From an uncultured Bacilli bacterium (GTDB lineage: Bacteria > Bacillota_I > Bacilli_A > RFN20 > CAG-449), in assembly GCA_947632435.1 (NCBI GenBank), contig CANRPC010000001.1, positions 75,986-139,985 of the forward strand: a DNA stretch of 64,000 nucleotides. Direction: 5' to 3'. This document shows positions 1,299 to 36,411 of the stretch, one piece after another. Each line of letters starts with the position of its first letter. The first letter of the stretch is position 1. A program made the translations under genes and the position numbers. Under the pieces are notes generated by a model that was given only the letters and a program-made list of their open reading frames with translations, searched no databases and had not been told where the DNA came from.

Positions 1299-1303
1299 AG
1301 ATT

Positions 1304-2242: not shown

Positions 2243-3186
2243 TGTCAGTTTCTGCTTTTGTTAAACAAAAAATAAAAAACAAACGCAATCAGCTTCGTCA
2301 AGCAGATTATGAAAGAAAAAACGATCTTTTATATAAAAGGCATCGTAGTGAAAAAGTATTGTATATAGCAATGTTTATTATATTTTTATTCTTTGCTATC
2401 ACATATATTTTCCCTTTTATTTGGGTTTTATATAACGGATTTAAAACAAGAACAAATTTTGCCAATGATTATATTGGTTTACCAACAAGTTGGACATTTA
2501 AAAATTTTATTGATGCCTTTACTTATTCTAAGCCTGAAACTCAAGGCTTTAACATATTTCAAATGTTAGGAATGTCAGTACTACTTTCCGTTTGTGGCAC
2601 ACTTGTAACAGTATTTGTATCTTGCTGTGCTGCTTATGTTGTAGCAAAATACGAATTTCCAGGTAGAAGTTTAATTTTAGGAGTAGTCATATTTACAATG
2701 ATTATTCCAATAGTTGGTTCATTACCAAGCCAAATTCAATTAATGAAAAATCTTGGACTTGATGGGAAAATAATTGGAGTAATTTTCTTATATAGTGGAG
2801 GCTTTGGAATGAATTTTATGCTGCTATATTCATTCTTTAAAAATTTATCTTGGACATATGTTGAAGCGGCTAAAATTGATGGTGCATCAGATTTTAGAAT
2901 TTTTAGATCTATCATCTTACCAATGGCAAAAGGACCAATTATTGCAATTTCTATTATTACTTTAATTGGACAATGGAATGATTATATGACTCCAATGATA
3001 TATCTTCCAGATAAACCTACAATTGCTGTCGGATTAAAACTATTATCAGATGCTATGCAACAAGAAGGCAATTACGTATTATTATTTGCCTCAATTACAT
3101 TAGCAATATTACCAATTATTCTTATGTTCTGTTTTTTCTCAAAAACAATTATGGAAAATACTTCAGTCGGTGGACTAAAAGGTTAA
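2242..3186 (+). CDS. Sugar ABC transporter permease (MalG/UgpE-type)
   Basis: 314 aa, polytopic. An EAA-like loop region (AKIDGASDFRIFRSIILP) is typical of ABC permease MalG-type subunits. Confidence 0.75.
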   Translation: MSVSAFVKQKIKNKRNQLRQADYERKNDLLYKRHRSEKVLYIAMFIIFLFFAITYIFPFIWVLYNGFKTRTNFANDYIGLPTSWTFKNFIDAFTYSKPETQGFNIFQMLGMSVLLSVCGTLVTVFVSCCAAYVVAKYEFPGRSLILGVVIFTMIIPIVGSLPSQIQLMKNLGLDGKIIGVIFLYSGGFGMNFMLLYSFFKNLSWTYVEAAKIDGASDFRIFRSIILPMAKGPIIAISIITLIGQWNDYMTPMIYLPDKPTIAVGLKLLSDAMQQEGNYVLLFASITLAILPIILMFCFFSKTIMENTSVGGLKG

Positions 3187-3206
3187 TAAAAAAGGAGATA
3201 TAAAAT

Positions 3207-4589: not shown

Positions 4590-4606
4590 AAAGGATGTAA
4601 AACAAT

Positions 4607-5986: not shown

Positions 5987-6017
5987 TTTTATTCAATCTA
6001 ACAAGAGGAGATTTTAT

Positions 6018-19889: not shown

Positions 19890-19939
19890 GAAATCGATTT
19901 CTATAAAATCTTGCAAATAAAACCGCTTTCATGTATAAT
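19890..19939 (+). promoter_or_regulatory. Promoter of the phase-variable surface-protein gene. It comprises the palindrome GAAATCGATTTC (19890-19901), a -35 TTGCAA (19911-19916), a cre-like site AAAACCGCTTTCA (19918-19931), and an extended -10 TGTTATAAT (19932-19939).
   Basis: Read directly. It is paralogous to 16667-16716. Confidence 0.5.
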
Positions 19940-19966
19940 TTATTTGAAAAGGAGAGAGTAAAAAAA

Positions 19967-22554: not shown

Positions 22555-23484
22555 ATGATTATTAACACTGGGCAAAGAACAGATATACCAGCATTTTATT
22601 CTAAATGGTTTATAAATAGAATAAAAGAGGGCTATGTTTTAGTTAGAAATCCATTTTATCCAAAATTAGTTACTAAATTTATTTTAGATCCTAATGTTGT
22701 TGATGTTATTGGATTTTGTAGTAAAAACCCTAGACCAATGTTTCAATATTTAAATGAATTAAAAAGATTTGGTCAATTTTGGTATATAACAATAACTGGT
22801 TTTGAAAATGATATAGAACCTAATGTTCCTTCGATTAATCAAGTAATAGAGGACTTTAAATATTTATCAAATAAAGTTGGAGTATTGTCTATATGCTGGA
22901 GATATACACCAATTATTATCAATGAAAAATATACTTTAAAAAGGCATATAGAAACATTTAAATATATCGCAGAAAATCTTAAAGGGTATACTTCTCTTGC
23001 TGTTTTTGGTTTTCTTGATTTATATGATAAATTAAAAAAGAATCATCAAGAACTTAAAGATTGCTCTGATGAAGATAAAATCATTATTACTAAAGAATTT
23101 ATAAAAATTGCTAAAAATAATAATATGGAATTAAGATTATGTTCAAAAGAAAAATGGCTTCAAGATTATGGAATAGATGTAAATGGTTGCATGAGAATTG
23201 AAGACTATGAAAGAGCAATTTCATCAAAGTTAGTAATTAAAAAGAAAATGCAAGCAAGAAAATCTTATTGTGCTTGCTATTTATCTAATGATATTGGAGC
23301 TTATAATACTTGCTTACATTTTTGTTCTTATTGCTATGCGAATAAAGATAAAAATGAAGTATTAAAAAATAATGCTCTTCATGATGATAATTCACCATTT
23401 TTAATTGGTAATTTAAAAGAAGATGATGTTATTAAAGAATATCCTGCAAAAAGCAATAAAACTGATGAAATAACTTTATTTTGA
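22555..23484 (+). CDS. DUF1848-family protein with a C-terminal Cys cluster (CxxxCxxC)
   Basis: The N-terminus MIINTGQRTDIPAFYSKWF matches the conserved start of DUF1848 proteins as I recall it. C-terminal CACY...CLHFCSYC. Confidence 0.45.
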   Translation: MIINTGQRTDIPAFYSKWFINRIKEGYVLVRNPFYPKLVTKFILDPNVVDVIGFCSKNPRPMFQYLNELKRFGQFWYITITGFENDIEPNVPSINQVIEDFKYLSNKVGVLSICWRYTPIIINEKYTLKRHIETFKYIAENLKGYTSLAVFGFLDLYDKLKKNHQELKDCSDEDKIIITKEFIKIAKNNNMELRLCSKEKWLQDYGIDVNGCMRIEDYERAISSKLVIKKKMQARKSYCACYLSNDIGAYNTCLHFCSYCYANKDKNEVLKNNALHDDNSPFLIGNLKEDDVIKEYPAKSNKTDEITLF

Positions 23485-23681
23485 TTTTTGTATAAGTTTA
23501 AAGCTTATAATTTTTAACACAATAATTTAATATTAATTTGATTTTAACATTTATTTTTTTTAATAATTTTTCACAAAAATAAATTAATTTTGTTTGTTTT
23601 CATATCAAACGGAACACTTTATTGACAAATTATTTATATATTAGTATATTATAAATGAATCAAATATTTAGGGGTGCAAAA

Positions 23682-24281
23682 ATGAACAAAAAAAAATATT
23701 CTTCATCGATAAAAAAAACACCATTTAAATATACAATATCAAAAAAAATAGCTGGATTAATGTTAAATAAATTAGATAGAAATGAAATTTATAACACATG
23801 TTTTAATTGTAATTATATTGAAATTGATTCTCTTGAAAGAAGAAGAGAAATTACAAATGTTATCTATAATAGGTTGTTAGAACTAGATAATTATTTGCTC
23901 GATTATTTTTATAATGGAGATGTTATAACTTCTAAATTTATTTTAGTATATGCTATAGCAAAATCCGATTCACTTTTTTTTGATTTTTTATTTGAAGTAT
24001 ATCGCGAAGCTTTGTTAGGAAATAAAAATTATATTTCAATTGATGATTTTGAAACATTTTTTTCTTCAAAAAAGGAATGTGATGTTGTTGTTTCAAAATG
24101 GGGAAATTTTACAATTGACCAATTAGCCAAAGGATATAGGAATATTTTAGTTGAATCTGGACTTGGAACTAGAATTAAAAGAAATATAAATGTTGAAAAG
24201 ATAACTATTCATCCAAATATTGAAGAGCATATTCAATTAATTGGAGATAAAAAATTTTTACAAGCATTATTAGGAGTGTAG
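23682..24281 (+). CDS. brxA: BREX type 1 BrxA (DUF1819-like)
   Basis: About 200-aa helical protein, first gene of a six-gene cluster with BREX-1 order and sizes. Start chosen at the internal ATG 23682 (RBS aggggtg), because the ORF-track ATG 23655 sits within the predicted -10 region. Confidence 0.5.
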   Translation: MNKKKYSSSIKKTPFKYTISKKIAGLMLNKLDRNEIYNTCFNCNYIEIDSLERRREITNVIYNRLLELDNYLLDYFYNGDVITSKFILVYAIAKSDSLFFDFLFEVYREALLGNKNYISIDDFETFFSSKKECDVVVSKWGNFTIDQLAKGYRNILVESGLGTRIKRNINVEKITIHPNIEEHIQLIGDKKFLQALLGV

Positions 24282-24286
24282 TAAGT

Positions 24287-24895
24287 GTGAGAAGTATAAA
24301 TGAAAGAAGTTTGAATGAACGTTTTAATGAACTTGAGGATAGAATGCAATCCGTTGAATCATTAACAAGATATGGTACTGCCAACGACATGAAGTTTTAT
24401 ATTTTTGATTATAATCCAAAAGATGAATACGCAGTTAGAAAAGAAATCAAAAAATTAAAAGAACATAATCAAAATATTATTGAATTTGATCTATATGAAA
24501 TGATGCTTGAAATCATTGAGAAACAAGGATATACAGAAGATGTAATTCGAGCAGAAACAGAATATGATAAAGAACATTTGCTATCTGAGATTTTTCAACC
24601 TATTTTATCAGTTGAAGAGTCAAATAATGAGTTTTTAGAAATGTTTAAATTAAGGGCATATGATGATGGATCAAAAATCATTTTGATAACAGGTGTAGGA
24701 AAAGCTTATCCAGTAATTAGAAGTCATACAATACTGAATAATTTACAAAGCATTTTCAGAAAAAATCCTGTTGTCATGATGTATCCAGGAAGATATGAAA
24801 CTAAGCAAAAAATGACTTTACGATTGTTTGATCGATTAGATGATGATAATTATTATAGAGCATTTCCACTAGTTGAAAGGAGAATTAGCAAATGA
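24287..24895 (+). CDS. brxB: BREX type 1 BrxB (DUF1788-like)
   Basis: 202 aa, second gene. Its stop overlaps the brxC start (ATGA). Confidence 0.5.
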   Translation: MRSINERSLNERFNELEDRMQSVESLTRYGTANDMKFYIFDYNPKDEYAVRKEIKKLKEHNQNIIEFDLYEMMLEIIEKQGYTEDVIRAETEYDKEHLLSEIFQPILSVEESNNEFLEMFKLRAYDDGSKIILITGVGKAYPVIRSHTILNNLQSIFRKNPVVMMYPGRYETKQKMTLRLFDRLDDDNYYRAFPLVERRISK

Positions 24896-27800
24896 TTATA
24901 AAAGATTTATTTAAAAAACCTATTGATAGAAGTATTCAAGGCGTAGTAACTATAGGTAATGAAGATGAAGAACAAAAATGGCAAGAATTAGAAGAATATG
25001 TTTGTACAGGAGAAATTACAAAACAATTTAGAATTTTCTTTAGAAAATATCGCGAATCAATTGCTGCTCCTACTGAAAAAATGGCTGCTTGGGTTACTGG
25101 ATTTTTTGGCTCTGGTAAATCACATTTTCTTAAAATATTAGGTTACATTCTTGAAAATGAGATAGTAGCTGGAATGAATGCAGTTGACTATTTCAATGAT
25201 AAAATTCAAGATGAGATGCTGCTTGCTGATATGAAAAAATGTGCTTCAGCAAATAACAAAGTTGTCTTATTTAATATTGATTCAAAAGCAAAATCAGATT
25301 CTAAAAATAAGACTCAGGCTATTATGGATATCATGCTTAGAGCATTTAATGAATCTGTTGGTTATTGTGGTGATAGACCATGGGTTGCGGATCTTGAAAG
25401 AATGCTTGATGAAGAAGGGTTATTAAATGATTTTGTTACTAAATTTGAAAAACTTTCTGGTCGTGATTGGAAAGCAAATCGATCAAAAGCTGCATTAAAT
25501 AAAAAAATCATAATTGATGCTTTAGTAGAAGTTAGAAAAGTTCCAAGAACAGATGCTGAAGATTATATTAATGATCAAATTAATAATTACACAAATTCTA
25601 CAGAGGATTTTGCAAAGATTGTTAACGAATATTGCAAAAAGAATAAAGCAAGAATCATTTTCTTGATGGATGAAGTTGGACAATTCATAGGTGATAATAC
25701 ACAATTAATGTTGAATTTACAGACTTGTGTTGAAGATTTGGGAAAATATTGTAAAGGACAAGCATGGGTTGTTGTTACATCACAACAAGAACTAAAAGCT
25801 ATGATTGATTCTACTAAGGATAAACAACAAGATTTTTCAAAAATTCAAGCAAGATTTGACACTAGAATTTTATTAAGTGGAGCAGAAGCAGGAGAGGTTA
25901 TAAAAAAACGTATTCTTGATAAAAAGGATAATGCAGTTAATTCTTTAAAATCATTATATGATAGCAATGCAAATAAAATTTCTAATTTAATTTTATTTGC
26001 TGGAACTCCTTCATGGAGCGGATATAAAGATGCAGAAGATTTTAAAAATGTATATCCTTTTGTGCCATATCAATTTGAATTACTTCAAAAGGTTTTCACT
26101 GCAATTAGAGAACATGGTATGTCTGAAGGTAAACATCTTGCACACTCTGAACGTTCTCTTTTAAGTGCATTTCAAGAATCTGCCAAAAAATATAGTGATG
26201 CTGAAACAAATATATTAATTCCATTTGATAGTTTTTATTCTACAATTGAACAATTTATTGATTGGGATATAAAAAATGTTTTTACTTCAGCAGAAAATAA
26301 GGCAACGCTTAGTGATTTTGATTTAAGAGTTCTAAAAATTTTATTTATGATTCTTCATGTAAAAGAAATGCCTGCAACAATAGATAGAATTGCAACATTG
26401 ATGATTGAATCGTTAAATGAAGATAAAGTTTTATTAAAAAAAGACATTGCTGAGTCATTAAAGGTTTTAGAAAAAGAAACATTAATTCAAAAAAATGGTG
26501 ATGAATTTGATTTTTTAACTAATGAAGAACAAGATGTTAATAAACAAATTAATCATGTCGATTATAATGAAGGCGAAGTTAAAAGAAATATTCTAGACAT
26601 TGTTTATGATAAAGTTCTTGAGCTAACTACTAAATTTCGTTATAAAAATAGATATGATTTTTCACTAAATAGATATGTTGATGATGAATTAAAAGGCAGT
26701 CATGGACAAGATAATATCTCTATTAAAATTATGACTAATTTTTCTGGAATTTCTGATCCAACCATGTTTGCGTCAGAATCTACAAGGAGCAATGCTCTAG
26801 TTGTTGATTTAACTGAAGGTAATTTTATTGAAGAATTAACTAGAGCAAACAAAATTTCACTTTATAAAAGAAACAATAGCAGTTCTTTATCTGTTTCAAT
26901 GACTGAAATTATGGCAAAGAAATCAGCTGAGCTTTCAGAAAGAGTTAAGAGAGCTGAAGAAATTATTAAAGAGTCACTTAGATCAGCACCAATTTATTTT
27001 AATGGAAATATAATTGATATAAAACAAAAAGATGGTAAAGATAGGTTAAATGATGCCTTAAATCAAGTTGTTGAACAAGAATATTATAAATTAGGATATG
27101 TGTCTTATTTTTATCAAGACCAAAAATCAATTTTAGAAGTTTTAAATTCAAATAATAATGGATTGTTTGGGAATGACATTGCAGGAGATGCAAATGAAAA
27201 AGCATTTCAAGAAATTTTTGATAAAATAAAAAATGATAAAAATATTGCTAAAAGAACAAATGTAAAAGAATTATTGGATCATTTTTCTAAAAAACCATAT
27301 GGTTGGAGAGATTTAGATGTTCTTGGTATGGTAGCTAAATTATTTAAATTAGAATTACTTCAAATATTTATTCATGATGTTCTTGTTGATGACAAAAATT
27401 ATAGTTTTAAAAATGATTTTGTAAAGAAAAATAGTCTTGATACAATGGTTGTTAGAGTTCAAGAAAAAATAGATGAATCAGTATTAATTCAAGTAAAACA
27501 AATTATGAATAAAATTTATTCATTATCACTTCAAATAAATGAATCTGAAATGAAAAAAGAGGTATTAAATTTCTTTACTAAAAAAAGAGATTTCTTAAGT
27601 AATTTAAAGATTAAATATGGTAATGAATTTGCAGGAGCTTCTTGCGTTCCTAGCATTTATAAAGATATTGATGAAATTGTTAGAACAAATGATTCTGCAA
27701 CTATTTTTAATGAAATTATTTTAAGAAAATATTCACTTGAAGAAAAATCTGAGATTTTAGAACAATTAGAAAGTTTTTACAAAGATGGCAGTAATCAACA

Positions 27801-28452
27801 AAAGGTATATAATGATGCTTTAGAAATTGTTAAATGGTATTACCAAAACAACAATTTATTGAATGCTTTAAATAAATTAGATGACGTAATTTTTAGTATA
27901 GATGAAATTCTTAAAATGGATGTTCCTTTTACTAAAATTAATCTATTAAGTGATTTAGTATTCAAAGCAGGAGAAGTAAAAGAACAAATATTAGAAGAAA
28001 AATATAATGAAGTAATTAATTCATTAAATGATGATCAAAAAAATATTAAAAATGAATTTGTTGGTGTTACAAGTTCTGATTTATCTGAATTTAAGAAAAA
28101 CAAAATAAAAGATAAATATGATAAGATTGAACATATGTATCAATCATGGTATAACACTTTATCAAATAAAACTCAAAATCTTGATTCTTATGTTGTATCA
28201 AGTCAAAACACAGTGGAAGATTTCAAAAAATTTATTAGTTCTATAATGGCTGAGGTGGAATCTATTCCTTATGGTGATAATTCTAACCAACCAGTAAAAG
28301 AAATAAAAAGAAAAAATGTTAGAGTCATTGATTGTGTTCCTATTGCTAAGAAAAGAATAAAGTCAAAAGATGATATTGATAGTGTTATTCAATCAATTAG
28401 AAAAGCATTAGAAGAAGCACTTCAAAATAACGATGAAATAACAATTAATTAA
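24892..28452 (+). CDS. brxC: BREX BrxC/PglY ATPase
   Basis: 1186 aa. N-terminal IQGVVTIGNEDEE...WVTGFFGSGKSHFLKILGYILEN matches the BrxC/PglY P-loop region (GxFGSGKSHF). A long helical C-terminus. Confidence 0.85.
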   Translation: MIIKDLFKKPIDRSIQGVVTIGNEDEEQKWQELEEYVCTGEITKQFRIFFRKYRESIAAPTEKMAAWVTGFFGSGKSHFLKILGYILENEIVAGMNAVDYFNDKIQDEMLLADMKKCASANNKVVLFNIDSKAKSDSKNKTQAIMDIMLRAFNESVGYCGDRPWVADLERMLDEEGLLNDFVTKFEKLSGRDWKANRSKAALNKKIIIDALVEVRKVPRTDAEDYINDQINNYTNSTEDFAKIVNEYCKKNKARIIFLMDEVGQFIGDNTQLMLNLQTCVEDLGKYCKGQAWVVVTSQQELKAMIDSTKDKQQDFSKIQARFDTRILLSGAEAGEVIKKRILDKKDNAVNSLKSLYDSNANKISNLILFAGTPSWSGYKDAEDFKNVYPFVPYQFELLQKVFTAIREHGMSEGKHLAHSERSLLSAFQESAKKYSDAETNILIPFDSFYSTIEQFIDWDIKNVFTSAENKATLSDFDLRVLKILFMILHVKEMPATIDRIATLMIESLNEDKVLLKKDIAESLKVLEKETLIQKNGDEFDFLTNEEQDVNKQINHVDYNEGEVKRNILDIVYDKVLELTTKFRYKNRYDFSLNRYVDDELKGSHGQDNISIKIMTNFSGISDPTMFASESTRSNALVVDLTEGNFIEELTRANKISLYKRNNSSSLSVSMTEIMAKKSAELSERVKRAEEIIKESLRSAPIYFNGNIIDIKQKDGKDRLNDALNQVVEQEYYKLGYVSYFYQDQKSILEVLNSNNNGLFGNDIAGDANEKAFQEIFDKIKNDKNIAKRTNVKELLDHFSKKPYGWRDLDVLGMVAKLFKLELLQIFIHDVLVDDKNYSFKNDFVKKNSLDTMVVRVQEKIDESVLIQVKQIMNKIYSLSLQINESEMKKEVLNFFTKKRDFLSNLKIKYGNEFAGASCVPSIYKDIDEIVRTNDSATIFNEIILRKYSLEEKSEILEQLESFYKDGSNQQKVYNDALEIVKWYYQNNNLLNALNKLDDVIFSIDEILKMDVPFTKINLLSDLVFKAGEVKEQILEEKYNEVINSLNDDQKNIKNEFVGVTSSDLSEFKKNKIKDKYDKIEHMYQSWYNTLSNKTQNLDSYVVSSQNTVEDFKKFISSIMAEVESIPYGDNSNQPVKEIKRKNVRVIDCVPIAKKRIKSKDDIDSVIQSIRKALEEALQNNDEITIN

Positions 28453-28463
28453 GAGGTGAACTT

Positions 28464-31045
28464 ATGGATAAAAGGGCATTACAAACTTATGCTGAATGGG
28501 CTAAGAAAAACTTAGAAAATCAAATTGAAGTTTCACTAAAAACATTAGGAATTAATAGCGATAATGATATTAAACAAGCTAGAAAAGTTGGTGAATATAC
28601 GATTATAGATGGAGATTCTAATTCCTATTCAGCAGATTTATATGATAAGCGAAATGATATTACAAATTTGATTAAATCAGATGGTTACAAAAATGTTATT
28701 GAAGAGTTTGCGTATACTTGGTTTAACAGAATAATAGCACTTAGATTTATGGAAGTTCATGACTTTTTACCTCACGGATTTAGAGTGCTTTCTTCTAGAG
28801 ATGGTAGTTTTGAGCCTGAAATTCTTAAAAATCTTAATTATGTTAAAGATGATTTAAAGTTAGATATGAGTATTATAGCTAGTCTTAATTCTCAAGGTAA
28901 AATAGAAGAAGTTTATCGATATGTTTTATTTAAACAATGTAATGCATTATCTAAGATTTTACCTATGCTTTTCAGTAATGAAAGTGCATATTTAGAATTA
29001 CTTCTTCCAAAAGCATTATTAAAAGGTGACACAATAATTACTAAACTTTTAGAAATAGATGAAAATAGCTTTTTAGAAGATGTAGAAGTAATTGGTTGGT
29101 TATATCAATTTTATGTAGCAAATGATAGACAAGAATTTAGAGATGCCAAAGTAGTCACAAAAGATTTAATTCCAACATTAACACAAGTATTTACTCCAGA
29201 TTGGATTGTTCGATACATGACAGAAAATTCACTTGGTAGATTGTGGCTAGAAAGTTATCCTAATTCTTCAATAAAATCAGAAATGAAATATTATGTTGAA
29301 GATGCAAAACAAGAAGAAGATATTCAAAAGAAAATTAATGAAATTAAATACAAAAATGTAAATCCCGAAGACATTAAAGTTATTGAACCATGTTGTGGCT
29401 CGGGACATATTTTAGTGTATATTTTTGATTTATTATTTAAAATGTATGAAGAAAAGGGTTATCAACAAAGAGAAATTCCTTCTTTGATATTATCTAAGAA
29501 CATATATGGATTAGAAATTGATAAACGTGCTACACAGCTTGCCACATTTTCATTAATTATGAAAGCAAGAAAATTAAATAATAGGTTTTTTAATGAAAAA
29601 TATTATGTTGAACCAAATGTAATTGAAATTTATGATTCAAGATTCTTTTTGGACTTTGATTATAAATCACAAATGGTAAGTTTAAAATTATTTAGTGACG
29701 AAGAAATAAAAGCAACAACTGAACTTATTGAAACATTTAGGTATGCCAAAACAATTGGATCACTTTTAATTATGCCTAAGATTAATATTTCATTAGTTGA
29801 AAATGTAATTGAAAAATTAACTAATAAAGCTGTTAATACTATATTTAATAATAAATTTATTGCTAATGGTCCTAAATTTCTTTCAAAATTAATTAATCAA
29901 TATAAAATAATGGCTAATAAATATGATGTTATGATCACAAACCCACCATATCTTGGAATATCAAAAATGGAAGCAAATCCTAAACGATATTTATCAGCAA
30001 AATATCCTAATAGTAAATCAGATATGTTTGCAATGTTTATGGAAACACCATTTGTTAAGAAAAATGGATTTAGAGCTATGGTAAATCCTGATTCTTGGAT
30101 GTTTCTTGTTAGTTATGAAGAATTAAGAAAGCAAATTATATTTAATGAAAGCATAGTGAATATGATTCATTTAGGGCTTGGAGCTTTTGATGCAACTGTT
30201 CAAACGACTTCATTTGTTATACGTAACTCTGCAATTGCTGGAAATGGTGTTTATTTCCGCCTTGTTGATGAAAAAGATAAAGAAAAAGCATTTTTGTCGG
30301 GGGGGGGGGTATAACTGCTAAATTAATTACCTTTTATAAAATACCAGGTTGCATATTATCATATTGGATTTCTAAAAAAACCATTGATAACTTCTTAAAT
30401 AAAAAACTTGGCGATGTAATAGTTACACGTGAAGGAATGGCAACAGCAGATAATGATAAATTTTTAAGACTTTGGAGCGAAGTTGCATTCACTAAAATTT
30501 ATTTTTGTGCAACTGATTATATTAATGCATTATATACGGGATATAAGTGGTTTCCATATAATAAGGGCGGTGTATTTAGAAAATGGTATGGCAATAATGA
30601 ATATATTGTAAATTGGCAAAATGATGGATTTGATATAAAAAATAACAAAGATGAAAAAAGCAAAAAAATTAGAAGTCACAATTATAATGGCAAATATGGT
30701 TTTTTGGAAGGAATTACATGGAGTTCGCTTTCAACGGGGTCCTTTTCATTAAGATATTCTCCTAAAGGATTTTTGTTTGATTCGAAGGGAGCAAAAGGCT
30801 TTCCAAATAATTCGAACGAAATTTGGTTTATTATGGGGTTATTAAATTCTCAAGTTGCAAAACATTATCTATCGTTTATAGCTCCAACAATTGACTATAA
30901 AGTTGGTGATATTATTCAAATACCATTTATAAAAAACAAAGAAAATAAGGTTAACGAATACGTTAAAAAAAATATTCAAGTTGTAAAGAAAGATTGGGAT
31001 TCTTTTGAAACTTCATGGGATTTCAAAAAACACCCATTAATATAA
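28464..31045 (+). CDS. pglX: BREX PglX N6-adenine DNA methyltransferase (N-terminal domain, MTase core and first target-recognition module). It is interrupted by a frameshift in a G11 tract, giving ORFs 28464..30314 and 30311..31045.
   Basis: N-terminal YTWFNRIIALRFMEV (the conserved PglX start). SAM-binding EPCCGSGHIL and motif IV NPPY (MITNPPYLG). The protein continues without a stop in the -1 frame after the G-run (GGG ITAKLITFYKIPGCILSYWIS...). 9 or 12 G would restore the frame. Confidence 0.75.
30299..30309 (+). repeat. Poly-G homopolymeric tract (G11) within pglX. It is a candidate phase-variation switch, currently OFF.
   Basis: Eleven consecutive G located precisely at the pglX frameshift. 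G-tract phase variation of pglX is established for the Streptomyces Pgl system and other BREX loci. Confidence 0.8.
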
Positions 31046-31086
31046 GGAGCGCATTCCTCCTAAATGAATGCAAAGGAGGAAAAAAT

Positions 31087-31818
31087 ATGGAATCAAAACA
31101 TTTAAGATATGAGATAGCATCTACAAAATTTAATATGATACCTGGAAATCCTATTGCATATTGGATAAGTAATGCGTTTAGAAATATTTTTTCAATGGGA
31201 ATTCCTATCGAAAAAATAGGAGACGTTAGGACAGGGATATCAACTGGTAAAAATGATTTATATCTTCGTTTATGGTATGAGATATCTTGTAGTTCTATTA
31301 ATTTTTATCAAACTAATATTAATAAGATTAACTTAAATGAAAAAAAATACATTCCTTATAATAAAGGTGGTGATGCTAGAAAATGGTATGGCAATAATGA
31401 ATATGTAGTTAATTGGTCACAGCATGATAAATTTCATCGTAGCAGACCTAATTTTTCAGATATTTATTTAAAAAAAGGATTAACTTGGTCATTTGTTACT
31501 TCTGGCATGTTTTCATCAAGATATTATCCAAATGGTTTTTTATGGGATGTTGCTGGATCTCCTTGCGTTTTTAATGATGATAGCAGTTTATATTATATTT
31601 TAGGATTTCTATCTACTAAAATTGCTTCTAATATTTTAAAGTTAATTAATCCAACCCTTAATTGTCAAGTAATTGATATACAAAGAGTTCCTATAATTGA
31701 TACTGATAATGATAAGGATAAAGTTATAAATATCTCTATTATGTCAGTTAAAAAATCGAAAGATGATTGGGATTCTTTTGAAACTAGTTGGGATTTCAAA
31801 AAACATCCATTAATTTAA
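31087..31818 (+). CDS. Second, divergent copy of the PglX target-recognition module, encoded as a stand-alone ORF with a strong SD
   Basis: 244 aa from ATG 31087 (SD aaaggagg at 31072-31079). It is paralogous to residues after the G-tract in pglX: both contain AYWIS, LRLW, YNKGG..RKWYGNNEY.VNW, and end with the identical DWDSFETSWDFKKHPLI. The central regions are diverged. Confidence 0.6.
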   Translation: MESKHLRYEIASTKFNMIPGNPIAYWISNAFRNIFSMGIPIEKIGDVRTGISTGKNDLYLRLWYEISCSSINFYQTNINKINLNEKKYIPYNKGGDARKWYGNNEYVVNWSQHDKFHRSRPNFSDIYLKKGLTWSFVTSGMFSSRYYPNGFLWDVAGSPCVFNDDSSLYYILGFLSTKIASNILKLINPTLNCQVIDIQRVPIIDTDNDKDKVINISIMSVKKSKDDWDSFETSWDFKKHPLI

Positions 31819-31835
31819 AAGAATAGGAGTCATAT

Positions 31836-32894
31836 ATGGCAAACAAGAACAATAACAAAGAAGTCACAATACGAAGTTCTGCTGCAGAATATTTAACTTA
31901 TGTGGCATCGGTAGGAGAAGAAACGCAAAATATAGAGGTAAGGTATGAAGATGAAAATATATGGTTAACGCAAAAAATGTTGGGATTACTTTTTAATGTT
32001 GAACCCCATACGATTAATTATCATATTAAAAAAATATTTGCAGATAGTGAATTAAGTGAAGATTCAGTTACTCGAAATTTTCGAATAACTGCCAGTGATG
32101 GAAAAACTTATGAAACAAAGCATTATAATCTTCAAATGATTATCGCAATTGGTTTTAAAGTTAACTCTGAAAGAGCCGTTCAATTTCGTAAATGGGTAAA
32201 CCAAATTGCATCCGAATATACAATTAAAGGATGGGTTATGGATGATGAGCGATTGATTAGAGGAACTTATTTAACTGATAAGTATTTTGAAGAACAATTG
32301 GAAAGGGTTCGTGAAATACGTGCCTCTGAAAGAAAGTTTTACCAAAAAATAACCGATTTATATGCTACTGCAATTGATTACGATAAGGAAGCTTTAGCAA
32401 CAAGAAGATTTTATGCCACAGTTCAAAACAAAATGCATTATGCTATTCATGGCCATACAGCAGCAGAATTAATTGTAGAACGGGCAGATTCAAAAAAAGA
32501 ACATATGGGACTTACTACATGGAAAGATAGTCCTGATGGAAAGATTCAAAAATCAGATGTAATTATTGCTAAGAATTACTTAACTGAATTTGAACTTAGT
32601 CAACTAAATAGAATGGTAAATGCGTATTTGGATTTTGCCGAAAATATGGCTCAAAGAAAAATTCCACTTACAATGGAAGATTGGGAAAACCGGCTTAATT
32701 CATTTATTGAAATGTTTGAATATGGGCTTTTAAAAGATGCGGGCAAAGTTTCAAACGAAATTGCAAGACTTCACGCAGAAACAGAGTTTGAAAAATATAG
32801 AGTAATTCAAGATGCATTGTTTATGTCCGATTTTGATAAGTATGTGCTTGAATTGGAAGAACATATTAAAAAAAATAAAAACAATAAGAAGTAA
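31836..32894 (+). CDS. rhuM: RhuM-family (virulence-protein RhuM / Fic-DOC-associated) protein embedded within the pglX region
   Basis: YNLQMIIAIGFKVNSERAVQFRKWVNQIASEYTIKGWVMDDERL is highly characteristic of RhuM-family proteins, which are commonly inserted between hsdM and hsdS of type I R-M loci. RBS aggag 7 nt upstream. Confidence 0.75.
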   Translation: MANKNNNKEVTIRSSAAEYLTYVASVGEETQNIEVRYEDENIWLTQKMLGLLFNVEPHTINYHIKKIFADSELSEDSVTRNFRITASDGKTYETKHYNLQMIIAIGFKVNSERAVQFRKWVNQIASEYTIKGWVMDDERLIRGTYLTDKYFEEQLERVREIRASERKFYQKITDLYATAIDYDKEALATRRFYATVQNKMHYAIHGHTAAELIVERADSKKEHMGLTTWKDSPDGKIQKSDVIIAKNYLTEFELSQLNRMVNAYLDFAENMAQRKIPLTMEDWENRLNSFIEMFEYGLLKDAGKVSNEIARLHAETEFEKYRVIQDALFMSDFDKYVLELEEHIKKNKNNKK

Positions 32895-32906
32895 AGGAAC
32901 AATTTT

Positions 32907-33842
32907 ATGGGAAGATTAATAGCTGATAAATTTAAGCAATGGGAAGAAGAGTGTCAAGAAAGATTTAATACTTTAAAAGCCAACGAAGAAGAATTAAACA
33001 GAATTTTCATTGAAATATATGGACTTCAAGATGAACTAACACCTGAAGTTGCAGATAAAGATGTTACTGTTAGATTAGCAGATAGAGAAAGAGATATAAA
33101 GTCATTGATCTCCTATATGATTGGTTTAATTATGGGAAGATATTCCTTAGATGTTGAAGGACTAGCTTATGCTGGAGGCAAGTGGGATTCAAGTAAATAT
33201 ATCACATATAAACCTGATGATGAAGGAATTGTCCCTATATATTCTAAAATTGGTATGTCAGATAGTTTAACTGCAAGAATTATTGAACTTATTAAACATA
33301 TTTATGGTGAGGATACATATCGAGCAAATATAGACTTTATTGCTGAAACTCTAGGAAAAAAACAAAATGAATCATCTGAGGAAACATTAAACAGATATTT
33401 ATGTGATGATTTTTATAATGATCATTTAAAAATATATCAAAAAAGACCTATTTATTGGATGTTTTCAAGTGGTAAAAATAATGGATTTAAATGTCTTATT
33501 TATCTTCATAGATATAGTGAAGATACTCTTGCTATTATTAACTCTAAATATTTTTTAAATGAATCTGCAAGATTAAAAAGAGAAATTGAAGATCTTTTTA
33601 TTCAACTTGAAACCGCAGAAGGAAAAGATAAAATTCGTCTTGAAAAAGAAAAAAAATTAGTGGAAGCAAAATATAAAGAAATGATTGAATATGGACAAGT
33701 ATTAGACCATATGGCAAATCAATATATTCAATTGGATTTAGATGATGGTGTTAAAGTAAATTATGCAAAATTTCAAGGCATTGAAATAATAAATGATAGT
33801 GGTGCAAAAGTTAAAAAAGACTTATTAGTTCCAATAAAGTAA
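32907..33842 (+). CDS. pglX: C-terminal domain of PglX, encoded as a separate 311-aa ORF
   Basis: NRIFIEIYGLQDEL, KRPIYWMFSSGK and GFKCLIYLHRY resemble the conserved C-terminal region of BREX PglX / type IIG-like MTases. This is from memory and not searchable here. Size sum: 616 + ~245 + 311 = ~1170 aa, the normal PglX length. Confidence 0.55.
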   Translation: MGRLIADKFKQWEEECQERFNTLKANEEELNRIFIEIYGLQDELTPEVADKDVTVRLADRERDIKSLISYMIGLIMGRYSLDVEGLAYAGGKWDSSKYITYKPDDEGIVPIYSKIGMSDSLTARIIELIKHIYGEDTYRANIDFIAETLGKKQNESSEETLNRYLCDDFYNDHLKIYQKRPIYWMFSSGKNNGFKCLIYLHRYSEDTLAIINSKYFLNESARLKREIEDLFIQLETAEGKDKIRLEKEKKLVEAKYKEMIEYGQVLDHMANQYIQLDLDDGVKVNYAKFQGIEIINDSGAKVKKDLLVPIK

Positions 33843-33856
33843 GGAGGTCAAACTAA

Positions 33857-36397
33857 ATGGCAAATATAGATTATCAAGAAGCCAAAAAAGAAATAGATAA
33901 GATATTTGAAAATAATATTGGTGAAAGAAAAATTGTTTTTTGGTATGATGCTCCAAAAAATTTTGAAGAAGATATAAAATCAGATAATTTTGAAAAATGT
34001 AAGCTTCTTATTTGTGATAGAAATGAATTTGAAATCAAAAAAACAATTGAACACGATGATTTAGAATCTAATTTTTTGATTTATATCCCAAACGAAAAAC
34101 CAATTGATACTGAAAATTGGTTATTGGATATTCTTATGTATAGTGAAGAATATTATGCTGATACAGTTGCTTTAATAATGAGACGATTCAATCTTTCTAA
34201 TAATGATTTAAGAAAAGTCATTGAAAGTCATTCAAAGTTTTTTGATAGTGAAATTAGAAGCAAGAAACTTTCATCTTATATAAAAATTAATGATAATATG
34301 ACAAGAGATCAATTTAAGTTAGCTATGATGGCGGTTTTAACTAAATCAGATCTATGTTCTATAGAATCAATATTAGAAGAACTTGTATTTGATGATCATG
34401 AACATACAAAATACAATGAATTAAAGAAATTTAAATTTGAAAATTATCTATGGGACCAAATTTGTGAATATTTCAATTATGATGGCGATTTAAAAATTGA
34501 AATGCTTATTAAAAGATTTATATTTACTACTTTTTTAGAACAAATAGAAAATGATGATAAAGAATATTTCACGAAATTGCCATCATATTATGATCAATTT
34601 GTTATTAAGGAAAAAGGTGTAAATGATGCTAGATATTTTATAAATAAAATTAAAAATGATAAAAGGTATGAAAAACTTCAAAATAATCTTGCAGATGAAA
34701 TGAAAATTGAAGGTCTTATTTCTACAAAAGATTTAATGAGTATTCAAAGTGCGGATGTTTTTGAATGCTTTGACAATTTTATTATTGATAAGATTGCTAA
34801 TAGTTTACAAAGTGGTAGTTTAGATTATGAAACTTTTCAAAGAATTATTTATAATCGTATAAATTCAATTTGGTATGAAAAATATAAAAATAAATACAAT
34901 TTTTTATTATCAGTAATTAAATTTTTAAAGGAAATTGAAAAACCAATTAGTCTTGATTCTACAGTTAATGATTATATAATGCAATATACTAAGGAATACT
35001 ATAAAATTGACATGTTTTATAGACATGTTTGTGCAAGCTTCAAAAAAATTGATTCTACAGAAGTTTTTGAAAATTTGATTAATAGAATTGAATCTTTATA
35101 TCAAAATAACTTTTTAGATATTTTAGGAAAAAATTATAATGGTGCATTAAGTAGTCAAAAAGATTGGAATTTTATTGGTGTTAATATGACAAATGATTTC
35201 TATCAGTATATTCAAAAAAATCCTGCAAAAAAAATGTTTGTCATTATATCTGATGCTTTACGATATGAGATAGGATATGAAATATATGAACAAGTAAAAG
35301 CAGATCCAATATTAAAAGGTGGAGCAGAAATTAAATATGCAATTAGTCCATTACCTTCTGAAACTCGTCAAGGAATGGCATCTTTATTACCACACAAAAC
35401 GATTACATATAAAAATAAAGCTTTTTATGTAGATAATGATATGCCTACAAATTCTATTGATGCTAGAAATAATATTTTACAGGCAAAAAATAAAGGATAT
35501 TCAGCAATTAAATTTGATACGATTAATTCATTAACACAAAGTAAATTACGCCAATATATGCAAGATAAAACTTTAGTTTATATCTATCATGATGTTATCG
35601 ATAATGCAGGAGAAAATAAAGAAAATGCAGTATTTGATGTAGTTCAATCTGCAATTGATGACATTATTACTTTAGTAAAAAAGTTATATAATAATTTACA
35701 AATTTCAAATTTCTATATTACGGCAGATCATGGTTTTTTGTATAGAAGAAACGAAATTCATGAATCTAGTAAATATAGTAATATTGTTTCTTTAAAACCA
35801 ACAGAAGTTGCTAAACGTTACGTATTAACTGATGATGAAACATTATCAATTCCGTATACTACTGAATTTAATTTAATTAATTTATCAAATGGTAATATGA
35901 AAGCTATTACTCCAAATGGATATGATTTATTTAAAACACAAGGAGGAGGAATCCAATATGTTCATGGTGGTGCTTCCTTACAGGAAACAATTGTGCCTAT
36001 AATACATATTAGCGAATTAAGATCGAGTAAGTTAAAAGATAGTATTGGACCTGTTGGTGTAAGATTAAAGAGTATAACACGTAAAATAACAAATAGAAGT
36101 TTTACTTTAGAATTTGAACAATATGAAAAAGTAGAAGATAAAAAACAAGCTATAACATGTGAAACATTTATAATTGACGAATTTGGTAATAAAGTTACGA
36201 ATGAATATAAATTTGTAGCTAATTCAAATAGTGATGATTCTTCTACAAGAATTTCTAGAATTAGATTTACACTTAAAAATATTGAATTTGATAGGAACAG
36301 ACCTTATTTTATGATATTAAAAAATATAGATAAACCAGATGAATACATTGAGAAGGAACTTTTCACAATTGATATTATTGGATTTAAAATGTTTTAA
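33857..36397 (+). CDS. pglZ: BREX PglZ (alkaline-phosphatase-superfamily)
   Basis: 846 aa. N-terminal RKIVFWYDAPKNFEED. Central PglZ-domain motif MFVIISDALRYEIGYE. Confidence 0.85.
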   Translation: MANIDYQEAKKEIDKIFENNIGERKIVFWYDAPKNFEEDIKSDNFEKCKLLICDRNEFEIKKTIEHDDLESNFLIYIPNEKPIDTENWLLDILMYSEEYYADTVALIMRRFNLSNNDLRKVIESHSKFFDSEIRSKKLSSYIKINDNMTRDQFKLAMMAVLTKSDLCSIESILEELVFDDHEHTKYNELKKFKFENYLWDQICEYFNYDGDLKIEMLIKRFIFTTFLEQIENDDKEYFTKLPSYYDQFVIKEKGVNDARYFINKIKNDKRYEKLQNNLADEMKIEGLISTKDLMSIQSADVFECFDNFIIDKIANSLQSGSLDYETFQRIIYNRINSIWYEKYKNKYNFLLSVIKFLKEIEKPISLDSTVNDYIMQYTKEYYKIDMFYRHVCASFKKIDSTEVFENLINRIESLYQNNFLDILGKNYNGALSSQKDWNFIGVNMTNDFYQYIQKNPAKKMFVIISDALRYEIGYEIYEQVKADPILKGGAEIKYAISPLPSETRQGMASLLPHKTITYKNKAFYVDNDMPTNSIDARNNILQAKNKGYSAIKFDTINSLTQSKLRQYMQDKTLVYIYHDVIDNAGENKENAVFDVVQSAIDDIITLVKKLYNNLQISNFYITADHGFLYRRNEIHESSKYSNIVSLKPTEVAKRYVLTDDETLSIPYTTEFNLINLSNGNMKAITPNGYDLFKTQGGGIQYVHGGASLQETIVPIIHISELRSSKLKDSIGPVGVRLKSITRKITNRSFTLEFEQYEKVEDKKQAITCETFIIDEFGNKVTNEYKFVANSNSDDSSTRISRIRFTLKNIEFDRNRPYFMILKNIDKPDEYIEKELFTIDIIGFKMF

Positions 36398-36411
36398 GGG
36401 GGAAAACAAAT

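What the first reader, a model, noticed from the sequence alone, without database searches (positions are those of the whole stretch)
30976..31818. Tandem, divergent target-recognition modules with near-identical 3' ends: a possible silent cassette for TRD exchange
The segment after the G-tract (30311..31045) and the ORF 31087..31818 are paralogous, each about 245 aa. They share the N-terminal flank (Y.IPG.ILSYWIS / PGNPIAYWIS, LRLW), a central YNKGG..RKWYGNNEY.VNW motif, and a nearly identical ~55-bp 3' end. Compare gattgggattcttttgaaacttcatgggatttcaaaaaacacccattaat at 30984-31042 with the matching sequence at 31762-31815; both encode DWDSFETSWDFKKHPLI. Their cores are diverged. Conserved flanks with a variable core is the classic arrangement for recombinational specificity switching (type I hsdS TRD swapping, pilin silent cassettes). 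Here both copies are in direct orientation, so exchange would occur by gene conversion or deletion rather than inversion.
Basis: seen in the sequence. Interest (0 to 1): 0.6.

Follow-up and report, generated by a model that had tools for sequence, protein, structure and literature searches.

The report
Split BREX methylase with spare recognition subunit
The two look-alike segments are two different DNA-recognition modules of a phage-defence (BREX) methyltransferase whose gene is naturally split into pieces. The second module is a translated gene of its own, not a silent spare, and in every related locus it comes with a slippery run of G's at the hinge in front of the first module.

Summary
Window 30311-31045 (module A) and 31087-31818 (module B) are paralogues, about 40% identical in protein. 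They share a 65-nt central block (85%) and a 54-nt 3' end (49/54 identical, all differences synonymous).

Both are the target-recognition domain (TRD) of the type-1 BREX methyltransferase PglX. In this window the gene is in pieces:
- N-terminal plus methyltransferase part, 616 aa
- a G11 tract at the inter-domain hinge, out of frame here
- TRD A
- free-standing TRD B
- a RhuM cargo gene
- a separate C-terminal-domain gene

The "silent cassette" reading is not supported. B has its own ATG and GGAGG ribosome site in all 24 related loci. It is under purifying selection (dN/dS 0.09-0.17). It shares no 5' DNA homology with A. The shared 3' end is a peptide motif conserved across the whole family, at the exact point where the gene is split.

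What is new is the architecture. All 22 loci that have an extra direct TRD gene and a readable hinge carry a G8-G12 tract there; none of 64 other loci do. B's ribosome site is masked by a covarying hairpin just after A's stop codon. Close relatives have replaced whole modules at the conserved junctions.

My best reading is a multi-subunit PglX with two co-produced specificity subunits that share one C-terminal subunit, under a poly-G phase switch. The biochemical roles are inferred, not shown.

The parts
23655..28452 (+). brxA (23655-24281), brxB (24287-24895) and brxC (24892-28452): upstream genes of the type-1 BREX operon.
   Evidence: Pfam BrxA, BrxB and BrxC domains.
28464..30314 (+). PglX 'upper jaw': N-terminal helical domain plus N6-adenine methyltransferase domain (contains NPPY). 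As read here it is 616 aa and stops two codons after the G tract (...LSGGGV*).
   Evidence: NF033452 positions 1-635, 633 bits. Pfam Eco57I, N6_Mtase and MmeI_Mtase. Aligns to 8c45 and 9ewz residues 5-~650.
30299..30309 (+). G11 homopolymer in the hinge between the methyltransferase domain and the TRD. G9 or G12 would fuse the upstream ORF to module A. G11 (here) and G10 give stops 1 and 4 codons after the tract.
   Evidence: A homologous G8-G12 tract is present in all 22 loci with an extra TRD gene and a readable junction, and in 0 of 64 others. L003 (G8) and L005 (G9) are otherwise identical over 13.6 kb.
30311..31045 (+). Module A: hinge, TRD and first spacer helix of PglX. It has no start codon of its own and is expressed only as a fusion when the tract is in frame.
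   Evidence: NF033452 positions 661-899, E 1.7e-81. Intact ORF.
30552..30616 (+). Central conserved block of module A (PYNKGG..RKWYGNNEY.VNW). Its partner in module B is at 31352-31416.
   Evidence: Direct repeat D1, 85% over 65 nt. The residues are invariant or nearly so in fused, split and free modules.
30992..31045 (+). Conserved 3' end of module A (DWDSFETSWDFKKHPLI, then stop). Its partner in module B is at 31765-31818.
   Evidence: Direct repeat D2, 49/54 identical. Family-wide motif. In the model of B this segment is disordered when B is folded alone.
31054..31081 (+). RNA hairpin in which an anti-SD (UUCCUCCU, 31054-31061) pairs with the Shine-Dalgarno of module B (AGGAGGAA, 31074-31081). 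It starts 9 nt after A's stop codon.
   Evidence: P(SD paired) = 1.00. Covariation across 9 loci: 6 pairs changed on both sides, and 0 of 500 shuffles reach the observed covariation score.
31087..31818 (+). Module B: free-standing TRD gene (243 aa) with its own ATG and SD.
   Evidence: NF033452 positions 652-899, E 2.4e-75. AlphaFold plus Foldseek to the PglX TRD. Many 230-260 aa homologues that end at the same motif. dN/dS 0.14-0.17 against orthologues.
31836..32894 (+). RhuM-family cargo gene inserted between the TRD genes and the C-terminal-domain gene.
   Evidence: Pfam Virulence_RhuM, E 1e-106. PADLOC candidate defence family PDC-S05, E 1e-145. Absent from compact relatives L003-L008.
32907..33842 (+). 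Separate gene for the PglX C-terminal domain (second spacer helix and the rest of the 'lower jaw'), 311 aa, with its own start codon.
   Evidence: NF033452 positions 906-1209, E 1.9e-104. Conserved as a separate gene in all tandem loci.
33857..38439 (+). pglZ (33857-36397) and brxL (36412-38439): they complete the type-1 BREX locus.
   Evidence: Pfam PglZ. Pfam BrxL_N, BrxL_ATPase and Lon_C.

Best explanation
The segments belong to a naturally split, multi-subunit version of the BREX-1 methyltransferase PglX. One gene encodes the 'upper jaw' (N-terminal domain plus methyltransferase). When a poly-G tract in the hinge is in frame, this is joined to TRD A. A second gene encodes a different TRD (B) as a free protein. 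A third gene encodes the C-terminal domain.

Both TRD modules end in the same helix and tail (…DWDSFETSWDFKKHPLI). In ordinary one-piece PglX this runs straight into the second spacer helix. Here it is the docking end that lets either module pair with the single shared C-terminal subunit to form a complete DNA-binding 'lower jaw'. That is why the 3' ends are almost identical.

B is translated from its own ribosome site. That site is masked by a hairpin just after A's stop codon, or in compact relatives it overlaps that stop codon. B is therefore made mainly when ribosomes finish A. A, B and the C-terminal subunit would then be co-produced, and B would give the system a second recognition motif.

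Slipped-strand changes in the G tract cut TRD A off from the methylase. Through translational coupling they probably also lower B, so they act as a reversible phase switch. New specificities arise by replacement of whole modules between lineages at the conserved junctions, not by copying B into A within a genome.

Shown: the anatomy, its conservation, the tract-length polymorphism, the TRD fold, purifying selection, the hairpin covariation and the mosaicism.
Inferred: docking to the C-terminal subunit, use of B by the methylase in trans, a second methylated motif, and the effect of the OFF state on B.
For: - Piece-wise mapping to PglX: N = positions 1-635, A = 661-899, B = 652-899, C = 906-1209 of NF033452. 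The virtual N+A+C protein scores 1278 bits and aligns end to end with PDB 8c45 and 9ewz.
- Hinge position: it matches the published flexible hinge between the two 'jaws' (Salmonella 654-659, PMC11341690; E. coli 638-675, PMC11842806).
- TRD fold of B. B keeps essentially all residues that are conserved in fused PglX TRDs.
- Conserved gene order brxABC, N-A, B (or B1 and B2), optional cargo, C, pglZ, brxL, in 24 loci from Bacillota, Bacteroidota, Gastranaerophilales and Mariniplasma.
- Every B and C gene has a start codon and an SD. dN/dS is 0.09-0.17 for both A and B.
- A and B within one locus are always far apart (27-44% identity), as expected for different specificities.
- L018 has two N-TRD genes and one free TRD but only one C gene, which fits a shared C subunit.
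- SD-masking hairpin with compensatory changes. In compact loci A's stop overlaps B's SD.
- G tract: 22/22 against 0/64. L003 and L005 differ only by G8 vs G9 over 13.6 kb. Seven of the 22 loci are out of frame.
Against: - No experiment or methylome links B to a motif.
- No locus was found in which the methylase part works with free TRDs only. A is always retained, so trans use of a TRD is unproven.
- If B and C form a lower jaw with no methylase attached, how its sites in the host become methylated is unexplained.
- The tract/extra-module association may partly reflect linkage, since they lie less than 1.5 kb apart, and shared ancestry. Most tandem loci form one clade in the N-part tree. Only L018 (outside the clade), L028 (nested, lacking both features) and L065 (sister, lacking both) give separate contrasts.
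- The hairpin arms used for covariation were picked from predicted structures in 9 of 13 spacer-type loci, so the counts lean towards the structure. L003, L018, L024 and L072 fit less well.
- Homopolymer lengths in assemblies can be wrong.
- The genome scan used the peptide pattern SW[DN]FKKHP, so the census is biased towards loci that have that motif.
Confidence: 0.5

Rival explanations
1. Frameshift-operated TRD toggle. With the tract in frame, the methylase uses its covalently attached TRD A. Out of frame, the cleanly truncated upper jaw (616 aa) is released and works in trans with the free lower jaw made of B and C. The poly-G tract would then switch BREX between two specificities without any recombinase. 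A softer version holds that slippage at the tract supplies some free upper jaws in every cell.
For: - The tract sits exactly at the flexible inter-jaw hinge, and B starts exactly where a lower jaw should.
- The tract co-occurs perfectly with extra TRD genes: 22/22 against 0/64. This includes a separate N lineage (L018) and a nested locus that lacks both (L028).
- Both out-of-frame readings stop 0-5 codons after the tract in 35 of 36 cases, mean 3.0 against 10.8 expected.
- The Salmonella PglX N-terminal domain alone can be expressed and purified (PMC11341690).
- BREX works as a BrxBCXZ supercomplex that could hold separated jaws together (PMC11842806).
- Truncation of a specificity subunit at a homopolymer tract that changes specificity is reported for some Type I hsdS genes (from my own knowledge, not checked here).
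Against: - B's ribosome site is masked by a hairpin that a ribosome finishing A would open, or it overlaps A's stop. This predicts less B, not more, when A is out of frame.
- No lineage has dispensed with A.
- Loci with two free modules (L031, L038, L078) do not fit a binary switch.
- Linkage can explain the association.
Confidence: 0.25
2. B is a silent donor cassette, and the expressed TRD is changed within a genome by gene conversion or deletion between the conserved flanks.
For: - Conserved central and 3' blocks in direct orientation.
- Whole modules have been exchanged between lineages with break points at the hinge, at the A-3'/spacer/B-5' stretch and at the end of B.
- A few loci show high codon identity in the 3' block: L002 13/15, L025 12/15, L075 11/13.
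Against: - B has a conserved start codon and a strong SD, and is under purifying selection.
- There is no DNA homology on the 5' side of the modules.
- Recombination between the direct repeats deletes B or makes an irreversible chimera. No such deletion or chimera appears among near-identical contigs (L003, L004 and L005; L006, L007 and L008; window vs L001).
- Codon identity of the 3' block is only slightly above background, and also between loci.
- No close A-to-B relatives across loci (at most 60-68% in half-modules).
- No recombinase nearby.
Confidence: 0.07
3. B has no specificity role. It is either a decaying duplicate, or a methylase-less decoy lower jaw (B plus C) that soaks up DNA-mimic anti-BREX proteins such as Ocr.
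For: Ocr contacts the TRD and the C-terminal domain, that is the lower jaw (PMC11842806). B with C would form exactly that surface without any catalytic part.
Against: - B ORFs are intact in all 24 loci and have low dN/dS, which argues against decay.
- The variable cores of B are as diverse and as often replaced as those of A. That is expected for sequence recognition and is unnecessary for a decoy, because Ocr binding is described as motif-independent.
Confidence: 0.08

Closest known systems
One-piece BREX type-1 PglX/BrxX (Salmonella 8c45/8q56; E. coli 9ewz)
   Same: Same domains in the same order. It sits in a full brxA-brxB-brxC-pglX-pglZ-brxL locus. The concatenated pieces align end to end. 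The TRD fold is shared.
   Different: Here the protein is encoded in at least three genes, with one extra TRD gene, a cargo gene inside the split and a mutable G tract at the hinge. [quoted passage not shown]
Inversion shufflons of pglX (Lacticaseibacillus rhamnosus, L. casei Zhang) and the split 'N+middle | C' pglX of Brevibacterium casei (PMC9881135)
   Same: The same middle (TRD) part of PglX is the variable unit, while the N and C parts stay constant. In B. casei the gene is split where the variable region ends, which is the kind of split point seen here.
   Different: Those systems use inverted partial copies and a site-specific recombinase. Here the extra copy is in direct orientation and has its own ribosome site and start codon. 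There is no recombinase and no inverted repeat. A hinge poly-G tract is present instead.
Homopolymer-tract phase variation of brxX/pglX and of other restriction-modification genes (e.g. Campylobacter Cj0031)
   Same: A long G run inside the coding sequence. Tract lengths differ between otherwise identical sequences. A homopolymeric tract in brxX is mentioned in PMC6326788, and the poly-G of Cj0031 in PMC9881135.
   Different: The tract is not just anywhere in the gene. It lies exactly at the domain hinge and is found only where further TRD genes follow. The out-of-frame product is a complete upper jaw.
Type I restriction-modification HsdS specificity subunits (TRD plus coiled-coil helix as a separate polypeptide; TRD swapping)
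   Same: A free TRD-plus-helix protein. Conserved junctions flank variable recognition cores, and whole-TRD replacement occurs between strains. The PglX C-terminal half is reported to resemble HsdS (PMC11341690).
   Different: B carries one TRD, not two. It has no sequence match to HsdS families (no Pfam hit). Its partnership with the methylase is not shown.
Silent-cassette gene-conversion systems (pilE/pilS, vlsE)
   Same: Tandem diverged copies with conserved and variable blocks.
   Different: Donor cassettes in those systems lack translation signals and share homology on both sides of the variable block. B has both translation signals and lacks 5' homology to A.

Membership tests
BREX type-1 PglX (NCBIfam NF033452) | Full-length match to the PglX model above its cut-off of 500 bits | tested here: met
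   The virtual N+A+C protein scores 1278 bits over model positions 1-1209. The N piece alone scores 633 bits. A (275), B (254) and C (351) are each below the cut-off on their own.
BREX type-1 PglX (NCBIfam NF033452) | Gamma-class N6-adenine methyltransferase core with an NPPY motif | tested here: met
   MITNPPYLG lies in the 616-aa ORF. Pfam Eco57I, N6_Mtase and MmeI_Mtase.
BREX type-1 PglX (NCBIfam NF033452) | Genomic context brxA, brxB, brxC, pglX, pglZ, brxL | tested here: met
   Pfam hits for all five partner genes, in order.
BREX type-1 PglX (NCBIfam NF033452) | Single polypeptide carrying methyltransferase, TRD and C-terminal domain | tested here: not met
   There are stop codons after the TRD and separate start codons for B and C. 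This holds in 24 loci.
PglX target-recognition domain | Fold of the PglX or Type IIL TRD, at the position of the residues that set the motif | tested here: met
   The AlphaFold model of B (pLDDT 88.8) matches 8c45 with TM 0.84 and 9ewz with E 1e-17. It maps to the region holding the engineered specificity residues, 684-838 (PMC11341690).
PglX target-recognition domain | Determines the methylated and defended DNA motif | not testable with these tools
   Needs a methylome or genetics.
Simple-sequence-repeat phase variation | Long homopolymer inside the reading frame whose length sets the frame | tested here: met
   G11 at 30299-30309. G9 and G12 are in frame; G10 and G11 are out of frame.
Simple-sequence-repeat phase variation | Length polymorphism between otherwise identical sequences | tested here: met
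   L003 (G8) against L005 (G9): 0 mismatches and 1 gap in 13,580 nt. Lengths across loci range from G8 to G12, and 7 of 22 are out of frame.
Simple-sequence-repeat phase variation | High-frequency reversible switching within a clonal population | not testable with these tools
   Needs read-level or culture data.
Recombinase-driven pglX inversion shufflon | Inverted partial pglX copy, inverted repeats and an adjacent recombinase | tested here: not met
   The window has no reverse-strand module. There are no significant inverted repeats. No recombinase was found among the neighbouring genes that were searched.
Silent-cassette gene conversion | Donor copy lacks translation signals | tested here: not met
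   An ATG with a GGAGG-type SD is present in all 24 loci.
Silent-cassette gene conversion | Homology on both sides of the variable block between donor and expression site | tested here: not met
   Only the central and 3' blocks are shared. The 5' ends are unrelated at DNA level.
Separate specificity subunit (HsdS-like way of working) | TRD plus helix as a free polypeptide that assembles with a methyltransferase | tested here: inconclusive
   The free TRD plus terminal helix is shown. Assembly with the methylase or with the C subunit is not testable here.

The most novel reading that the evidence does not exclude
The hinge poly-G tract is a recombinase-free specificity device. By slippage, at the DNA level and possibly also the RNA level, it releases a free methyltransferase 'upper jaw'. 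That jaw then works in trans with one or more free-standing TRD subunits docked on a shared C-terminal subunit. One BREX locus could thereby switch between, or run in parallel, several recognition motifs. This would make PglX a Type I-like M+S enzyme in this lineage.
Probability: 0.28. Interest if true: 0.8.

Novelty: new variant of a known kind. Interest (0 to 1): 0.6.

Why it matters
PglX is the component that decides what BREX recognises, for both self-marking and defence. Published work treats its TRD as part of one polypeptide. The known routes to new specificity are point mutation, inversion shufflons and simple on/off phase variation.

A widespread lineage that encodes TRDs as separate, translated genes next to a severable hinge would show two things. 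The two 'jaws' of PglX may work as separate subunits, and a single BREX locus may carry more than one specificity.

It also gives a natural, modular scaffold for re-targeting BREX: swap a 240-aa gene. It offers a direct test of how the methylase, TRD and C-terminal parts assemble in the BrxBCXZ complex.

The split point is in addition a recurrent landing site for other candidate defence genes.

Tried and rejected
1. Gene conversion at the 3' repeat. I compared codon identity at amino-acid-identical sites in the last 17 codons with the rest of the module, within and between loci. The excess is small and also seen between loci, so protein constraint plus codon bias explains it.

2. 'A's first half is shared with L038/L002.' A first BLASTN suggested break points at the central motif. 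A 60-nt sliding comparison showed that identity actually drops at the G tract. I withdrew the claim.

3. A-to-B exchange between loci. In the half-module BLAST, most apparent cross-position hits were A modules that gene callers had started at an internal Met in out-of-frame assemblies. The real cross-position matches are only 60-68% identical.

4. A clean 'A clade versus B clade' tree. The module tree is star-like, with free modules scattered among TRDs of fused PglX genes. It is not informative beyond showing there is no monophyletic B type.

5. Organism identification. The exact-sequence look-up returned no names. The window's species was not among the genome-scan hits. The closest loci (93% DNA identity) are uncultured Bacilli from rabbit gut.

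6. Plasmid collection search with B. It found only ordinary one-piece pglX genes at 42% identity or less.

7. Literature searches for pglX or BREX with frameshift, homopolymer or poly-G found no description of this architecture.

8. No complex was modelled, because the structure tool folds single chains only and I did not try a fused construct.
Full report
THE OBSERVATION

Window 30311-31045 (A) and 31087-31818 (B) are real paralogues. Protein identity is about 40% (101 identical residues in a 258-column global alignment) and DNA identity is 61%.

Two direct-repeat blocks stand out:
- A central block, 30552-30616 against 31352-31416: 65 nt, 85% identical, with a 28-nt perfect run. It encodes PYNKGG..RKWYGNNEY.VNW.
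- The 3' ends, 30992-31045 against 31765-31818: 49 of 54 nt identical.

Both ends encode DWDSFETSWDFKKHPLI and a stop, and all five differences are synonymous.

WHAT THE SEGMENTS ARE

The region is a complete type-1 BREX locus: brxA, brxB, brxC, pglX, pglZ and brxL. The pglX gene is in pieces. Mapped to the 1210-position NCBIfam PglX model NF033452:

| Piece | Window | Model positions |
|---|---|---|
| N-terminal + methyltransferase ORF, 616 aa | 28464-30314 | 1-635 |
| Module A | 30311-31045 | 661-899 |
| Module B | 31087-31818 | 652-899 |
| C-terminal-domain ORF | 32907-33842 | 906-1209 |

A virtual N+A+C protein, made by adding one G to the tract, scores 1278 bits. It aligns end to end with Salmonella PglX (8c45) and E. 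coli BrxX (9ewz).

A and B therefore cover the hinge, the TRD and the first helix of the 'double-helical spacer'. The published anatomy agrees:
- Salmonella: hinge 654-659 and specificity residues 684-838 (PMC11341690).
- E. coli: an upper jaw (N-terminal plus methyltransferase domains) and a lower jaw (TRD plus C-terminal domain), joined by flexible hinge loops 638-675 (PMC11842806).

An AlphaFold model of B built from 60 homologues (pLDDT 88.8) superposes on the TRD of 8c45 (TM 0.84) and of 9ewz. It then matches the DNA-recognition domains of CamA, M.BseCI and M.TaqI.

In the model a long helix (residues 210-230) is followed by a tail, TSWDFKKHPLI, that is disordered when B is folded alone.

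THE G TRACT

The tract is G11 at 30299-30309. G9 or G12 fuses the 616-aa ORF to A. G11 (here) and G10 stop 1 and 4 codons after the tract.

B IS A GENE, AND THE ARRANGEMENT IS A CONSERVED DESIGN

A search with B found 605 homologues. Most of the best 120 are free-standing proteins of 230-260 aa that end at the same ...SWDFKKHPL[IV] stop.

Contigs carrying close relatives share one gene order: brxABC, an 860-aa N-A gene, a 240-aa free module, a 311-316-aa C gene, then pglZ and brxL.

I scanned one genome per species and classified the 79 loci recovered, together with the window and the contigs L001-L008 fetched earlier, using HMMs for the N, module and C parts. This gave:
- many ordinary fused genes;
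- 12 loci split as N-module | C without an extra module;
- 24 loci with one or two extra direct modules, counting the window and some redundant contigs.

The tandem loci come from Bacillota, Prevotellaceae, Paludibacteraceae, Odoribacter, Gastranaerophilales and Mariniplasma.

Further points:
- Every free module and every C gene has a start codon behind a GGAGG-type Shine-Dalgarno.
- dN/dS between orthologous B modules is 0.09-0.17, the same as for A.
- B keeps essentially all residues that are conserved in fused PglX TRDs.
- A and B within a locus are always far apart, at 27-44% identity.

THE 3' IDENTITY

The shared end is a family-wide peptide motif located exactly where the gene is split. 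It is present in fused genes too, though the scan pattern SW[DN]FKKHP biases that sample.

Codon identity at amino-acid-identical sites:

| Comparison | Last 17 codons | Rest of module |
|---|---|---|
| Within a locus | 62% | 51% |
| Between loci | 54% | 49% |

The window's 12/15 is not exceptional. Protein constraint plus AT-rich codon bias explains the DNA identity, and there is no systematic concerted evolution.

My inference is that this segment is the docking end that pairs any TRD module with the separately encoded C subunit. It would form in trans the two-helix spacer that is continuous in ordinary PglX. L018 supports a shared C subunit: it has two N-TRD genes and a free TRD but only one C gene.

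THE POLY-G LINK

All 22 tandem loci in which the N-module junction is present carry G8-G12 at the homologous hinge position, even where the flanking sequence has diverged. None of 64 other loci does. It is the only long homopolymer in the pglX region of those loci.

L003 (G8, out of frame) and L005 (G9, in frame) come from different samples and are otherwise identical over 13,580 nt. Seven of the 22 loci are out of frame.

Both out-of-frame readings stop 0-5 codons after the tract in 35 of 36 cases, mean 3.0 against 10.8 expected. The OFF product is therefore a clean upper jaw.

Caveat: in a tree of the N part most tandem loci form one clade. Only L018 (another lineage, has both features), L028 (nested, lacks both) and L065 (sister, lacks both) give separate contrasts. 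The tract and B lie within 1.5 kb of each other, so linkage could produce the pattern.

TRANSLATIONAL CONTROL OF B

In the window an anti-SD (UUCCUCCU, 31054-31061), 9 nt after A's stop, pairs with B's SD (AGGAGGAA, 31074-31081).

In the 13 loci that have a 36-44-nt spacer, the predicted probability that the SD is paired is at least 0.8 in 11. In nine of them the stem extends with different but complementary sequences. Six pairs changed on both sides, no shuffle out of 500 reaches the observed covariation score, and versions with the partner slid by a few columns score far lower. The arms were taken from predicted folds, so the counts lean towards the structure.

In compact loci A's stop codon overlaps B's SD.

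Both layouts are typical of translational coupling: B is made when ribosomes finish A. This favours co-production of N-A, B and C. It argues against a simple 'B takes over when A is off' switch.

HOW SPECIFICITY ACTUALLY CHANGES

The window is 92-98% identical to L025 and L038 through the methylase part. Identity then drops at the G tract to about 60% across A. It returns to 88-90% over the A-3'/spacer/B-5' stretch with L025 (about 75% or less with L038). It falls to about 45-55% in B's core and is 93% again in the C gene.

L002 keeps B (75-90%) but not A. L038 shares its A with L002 (79%) but has two unrelated B modules.

Whole modules are therefore replaced between lineages at the conserved junctions.

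I found no sign of exchange within a genome. Near-identical contigs show no chimeras or deletions. No A and B modules across loci are close relatives. There is no 5' homology, no recombinase and no inverted copy.

COMPARISON WITH WHAT IS KNOWN

Already described:
- A homopolymeric tract that may give phase variation of brxX (PMC6326788).
- Inversion shufflons that swap the middle of PglX.
- A Brevibacterium casei pglX split into 'N+middle | C' where the variable region ends, again with inversions (PMC9881135).
- The two-jaw structure of BrxX (PMC11842806).

A recent survey of BREX diversity lists four regions for BrxX, and the text searches I ran in it found nothing about split or truncated forms (PMC12839542). 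[quoted passage not shown]

I found no description of direct, separately translated TRD genes coupled to a hinge poly-G. I file it as a new variant of a known kind.

VERDICT

- Observation: confirmed.
- Interpretation: partly supported. TRDs, yes. Modular exchange, yes, on an evolutionary scale. Silent cassette for programmed exchange, no.
- Best explanation (confidence 0.5): a multi-subunit PglX with two co-produced specificity subunits sharing one C-terminal subunit, under a poly-G phase switch.
- Main rival (0.25): the tract toggles the methylase between the attached TRD and the free TRD.

Both can be settled by a methylome of locked-ON, locked-OFF and B-deleted constructs.

Noticed in passing
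window 20243-20252 (ORFs 19931-20266 and 20238-22265): A second long homopolymer (G10) lies at the overlap of a 111-aa ORF and a 675-aa ORF in different frames. A change of one G would fuse them into a protein of about 780 aa. Neither ORF has a Pfam hit, and the 675-aa ORF has no PADLOC hit. It is probably another phase-variable gene. Two G runs of 10 or more in a 25.6% GC window are far beyond chance.
   Followed up: partly
window 31836-32894; related loci L002, L011, L018, L022, L024, L025, L028, L034, L038, L064, L072, L075, L078 (gap between last TRD gene and C gene): The split point between the TRD gene(s) and the C-terminal-domain gene is a recurrent insertion site for same-strand cargo. 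Examples are RhuM (PADLOC candidate PDC-S05), HEPN pEK499_p136 with DUF4160, an AAA_21/AbiEii-like ATPase, a TIR-domain protein, DUF2971, and zinc-ribbon plus membrane-protein pairs. Compact relatives have only a 12-23 nt gap there.
   Followed up: partly
L018:4165-12722: One locus (Gastranaerophilales) has two N-TRD genes (only the first has a hinge G10), one free TRD gene, DUF2971 and RhuM cargo, and a single C-terminal-domain gene. Its first N part belongs to a different PglX lineage from the other poly-G loci.
   Followed up: partly
L026, L052, L082 (positions ~400-6720): In these loci a full-length fused PglX is followed about 110 nt later, on the same strand, by a second N-TRD gene that stops at the HPL motif. 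No second C-terminal part is found in the following 6 kb. In L026 and L052 the second copy has an A8 run at its hinge.
   Followed up: no
L054:1796-7647: A truncated pglX copy (part of the methylase, TRD and C part) lies head to head with a full-length pglX. This is the inverted arrangement expected for the known recombinase-driven shufflons and is a useful contrast to the direct arrangement in the window.
   Followed up: no
window 22555-23484: A DUF1848 protein lies immediately upstream of brxA. It matches the PADLOC model RTasDUF1848, which is associated with defence reverse transcriptases.
   Followed up: no
window 38477-43305: Downstream of brxL lie three ORFs: a cyclophilin-like protein (a homologue sits beside a Thoeris system in L008), an 891-aa AAA_5 ATPase matching the PADLOC candidate PDC-M26A, and an overlapping 509-aa ORF with no family hit. 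The BREX locus appears to sit in a defence island.
   Followed up: no
window 31043-31050 and L018/L024 spacers: Some spacers contain a third element, an SD-like sequence at or just after A's stop codon (window UAAGGAG; L018 GCAGGAGG). It can pair with the anti-SD in place of B's true SD. In L018 and L024 that alternative pairing is the predicted minimum-energy fold. This hints at a two-state RNA switch whose logic I could not resolve.
   Followed up: partly
L001 (4517-nt metagenome contig, identical to window 30884-35400): The only other contig carrying the window's exact B and C proteins begins inside the 3' end of module A, about 110 nt upstream of the conserved 3' block. The assembly may have broken there because of low coverage (about 3x).
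   Followed up: no
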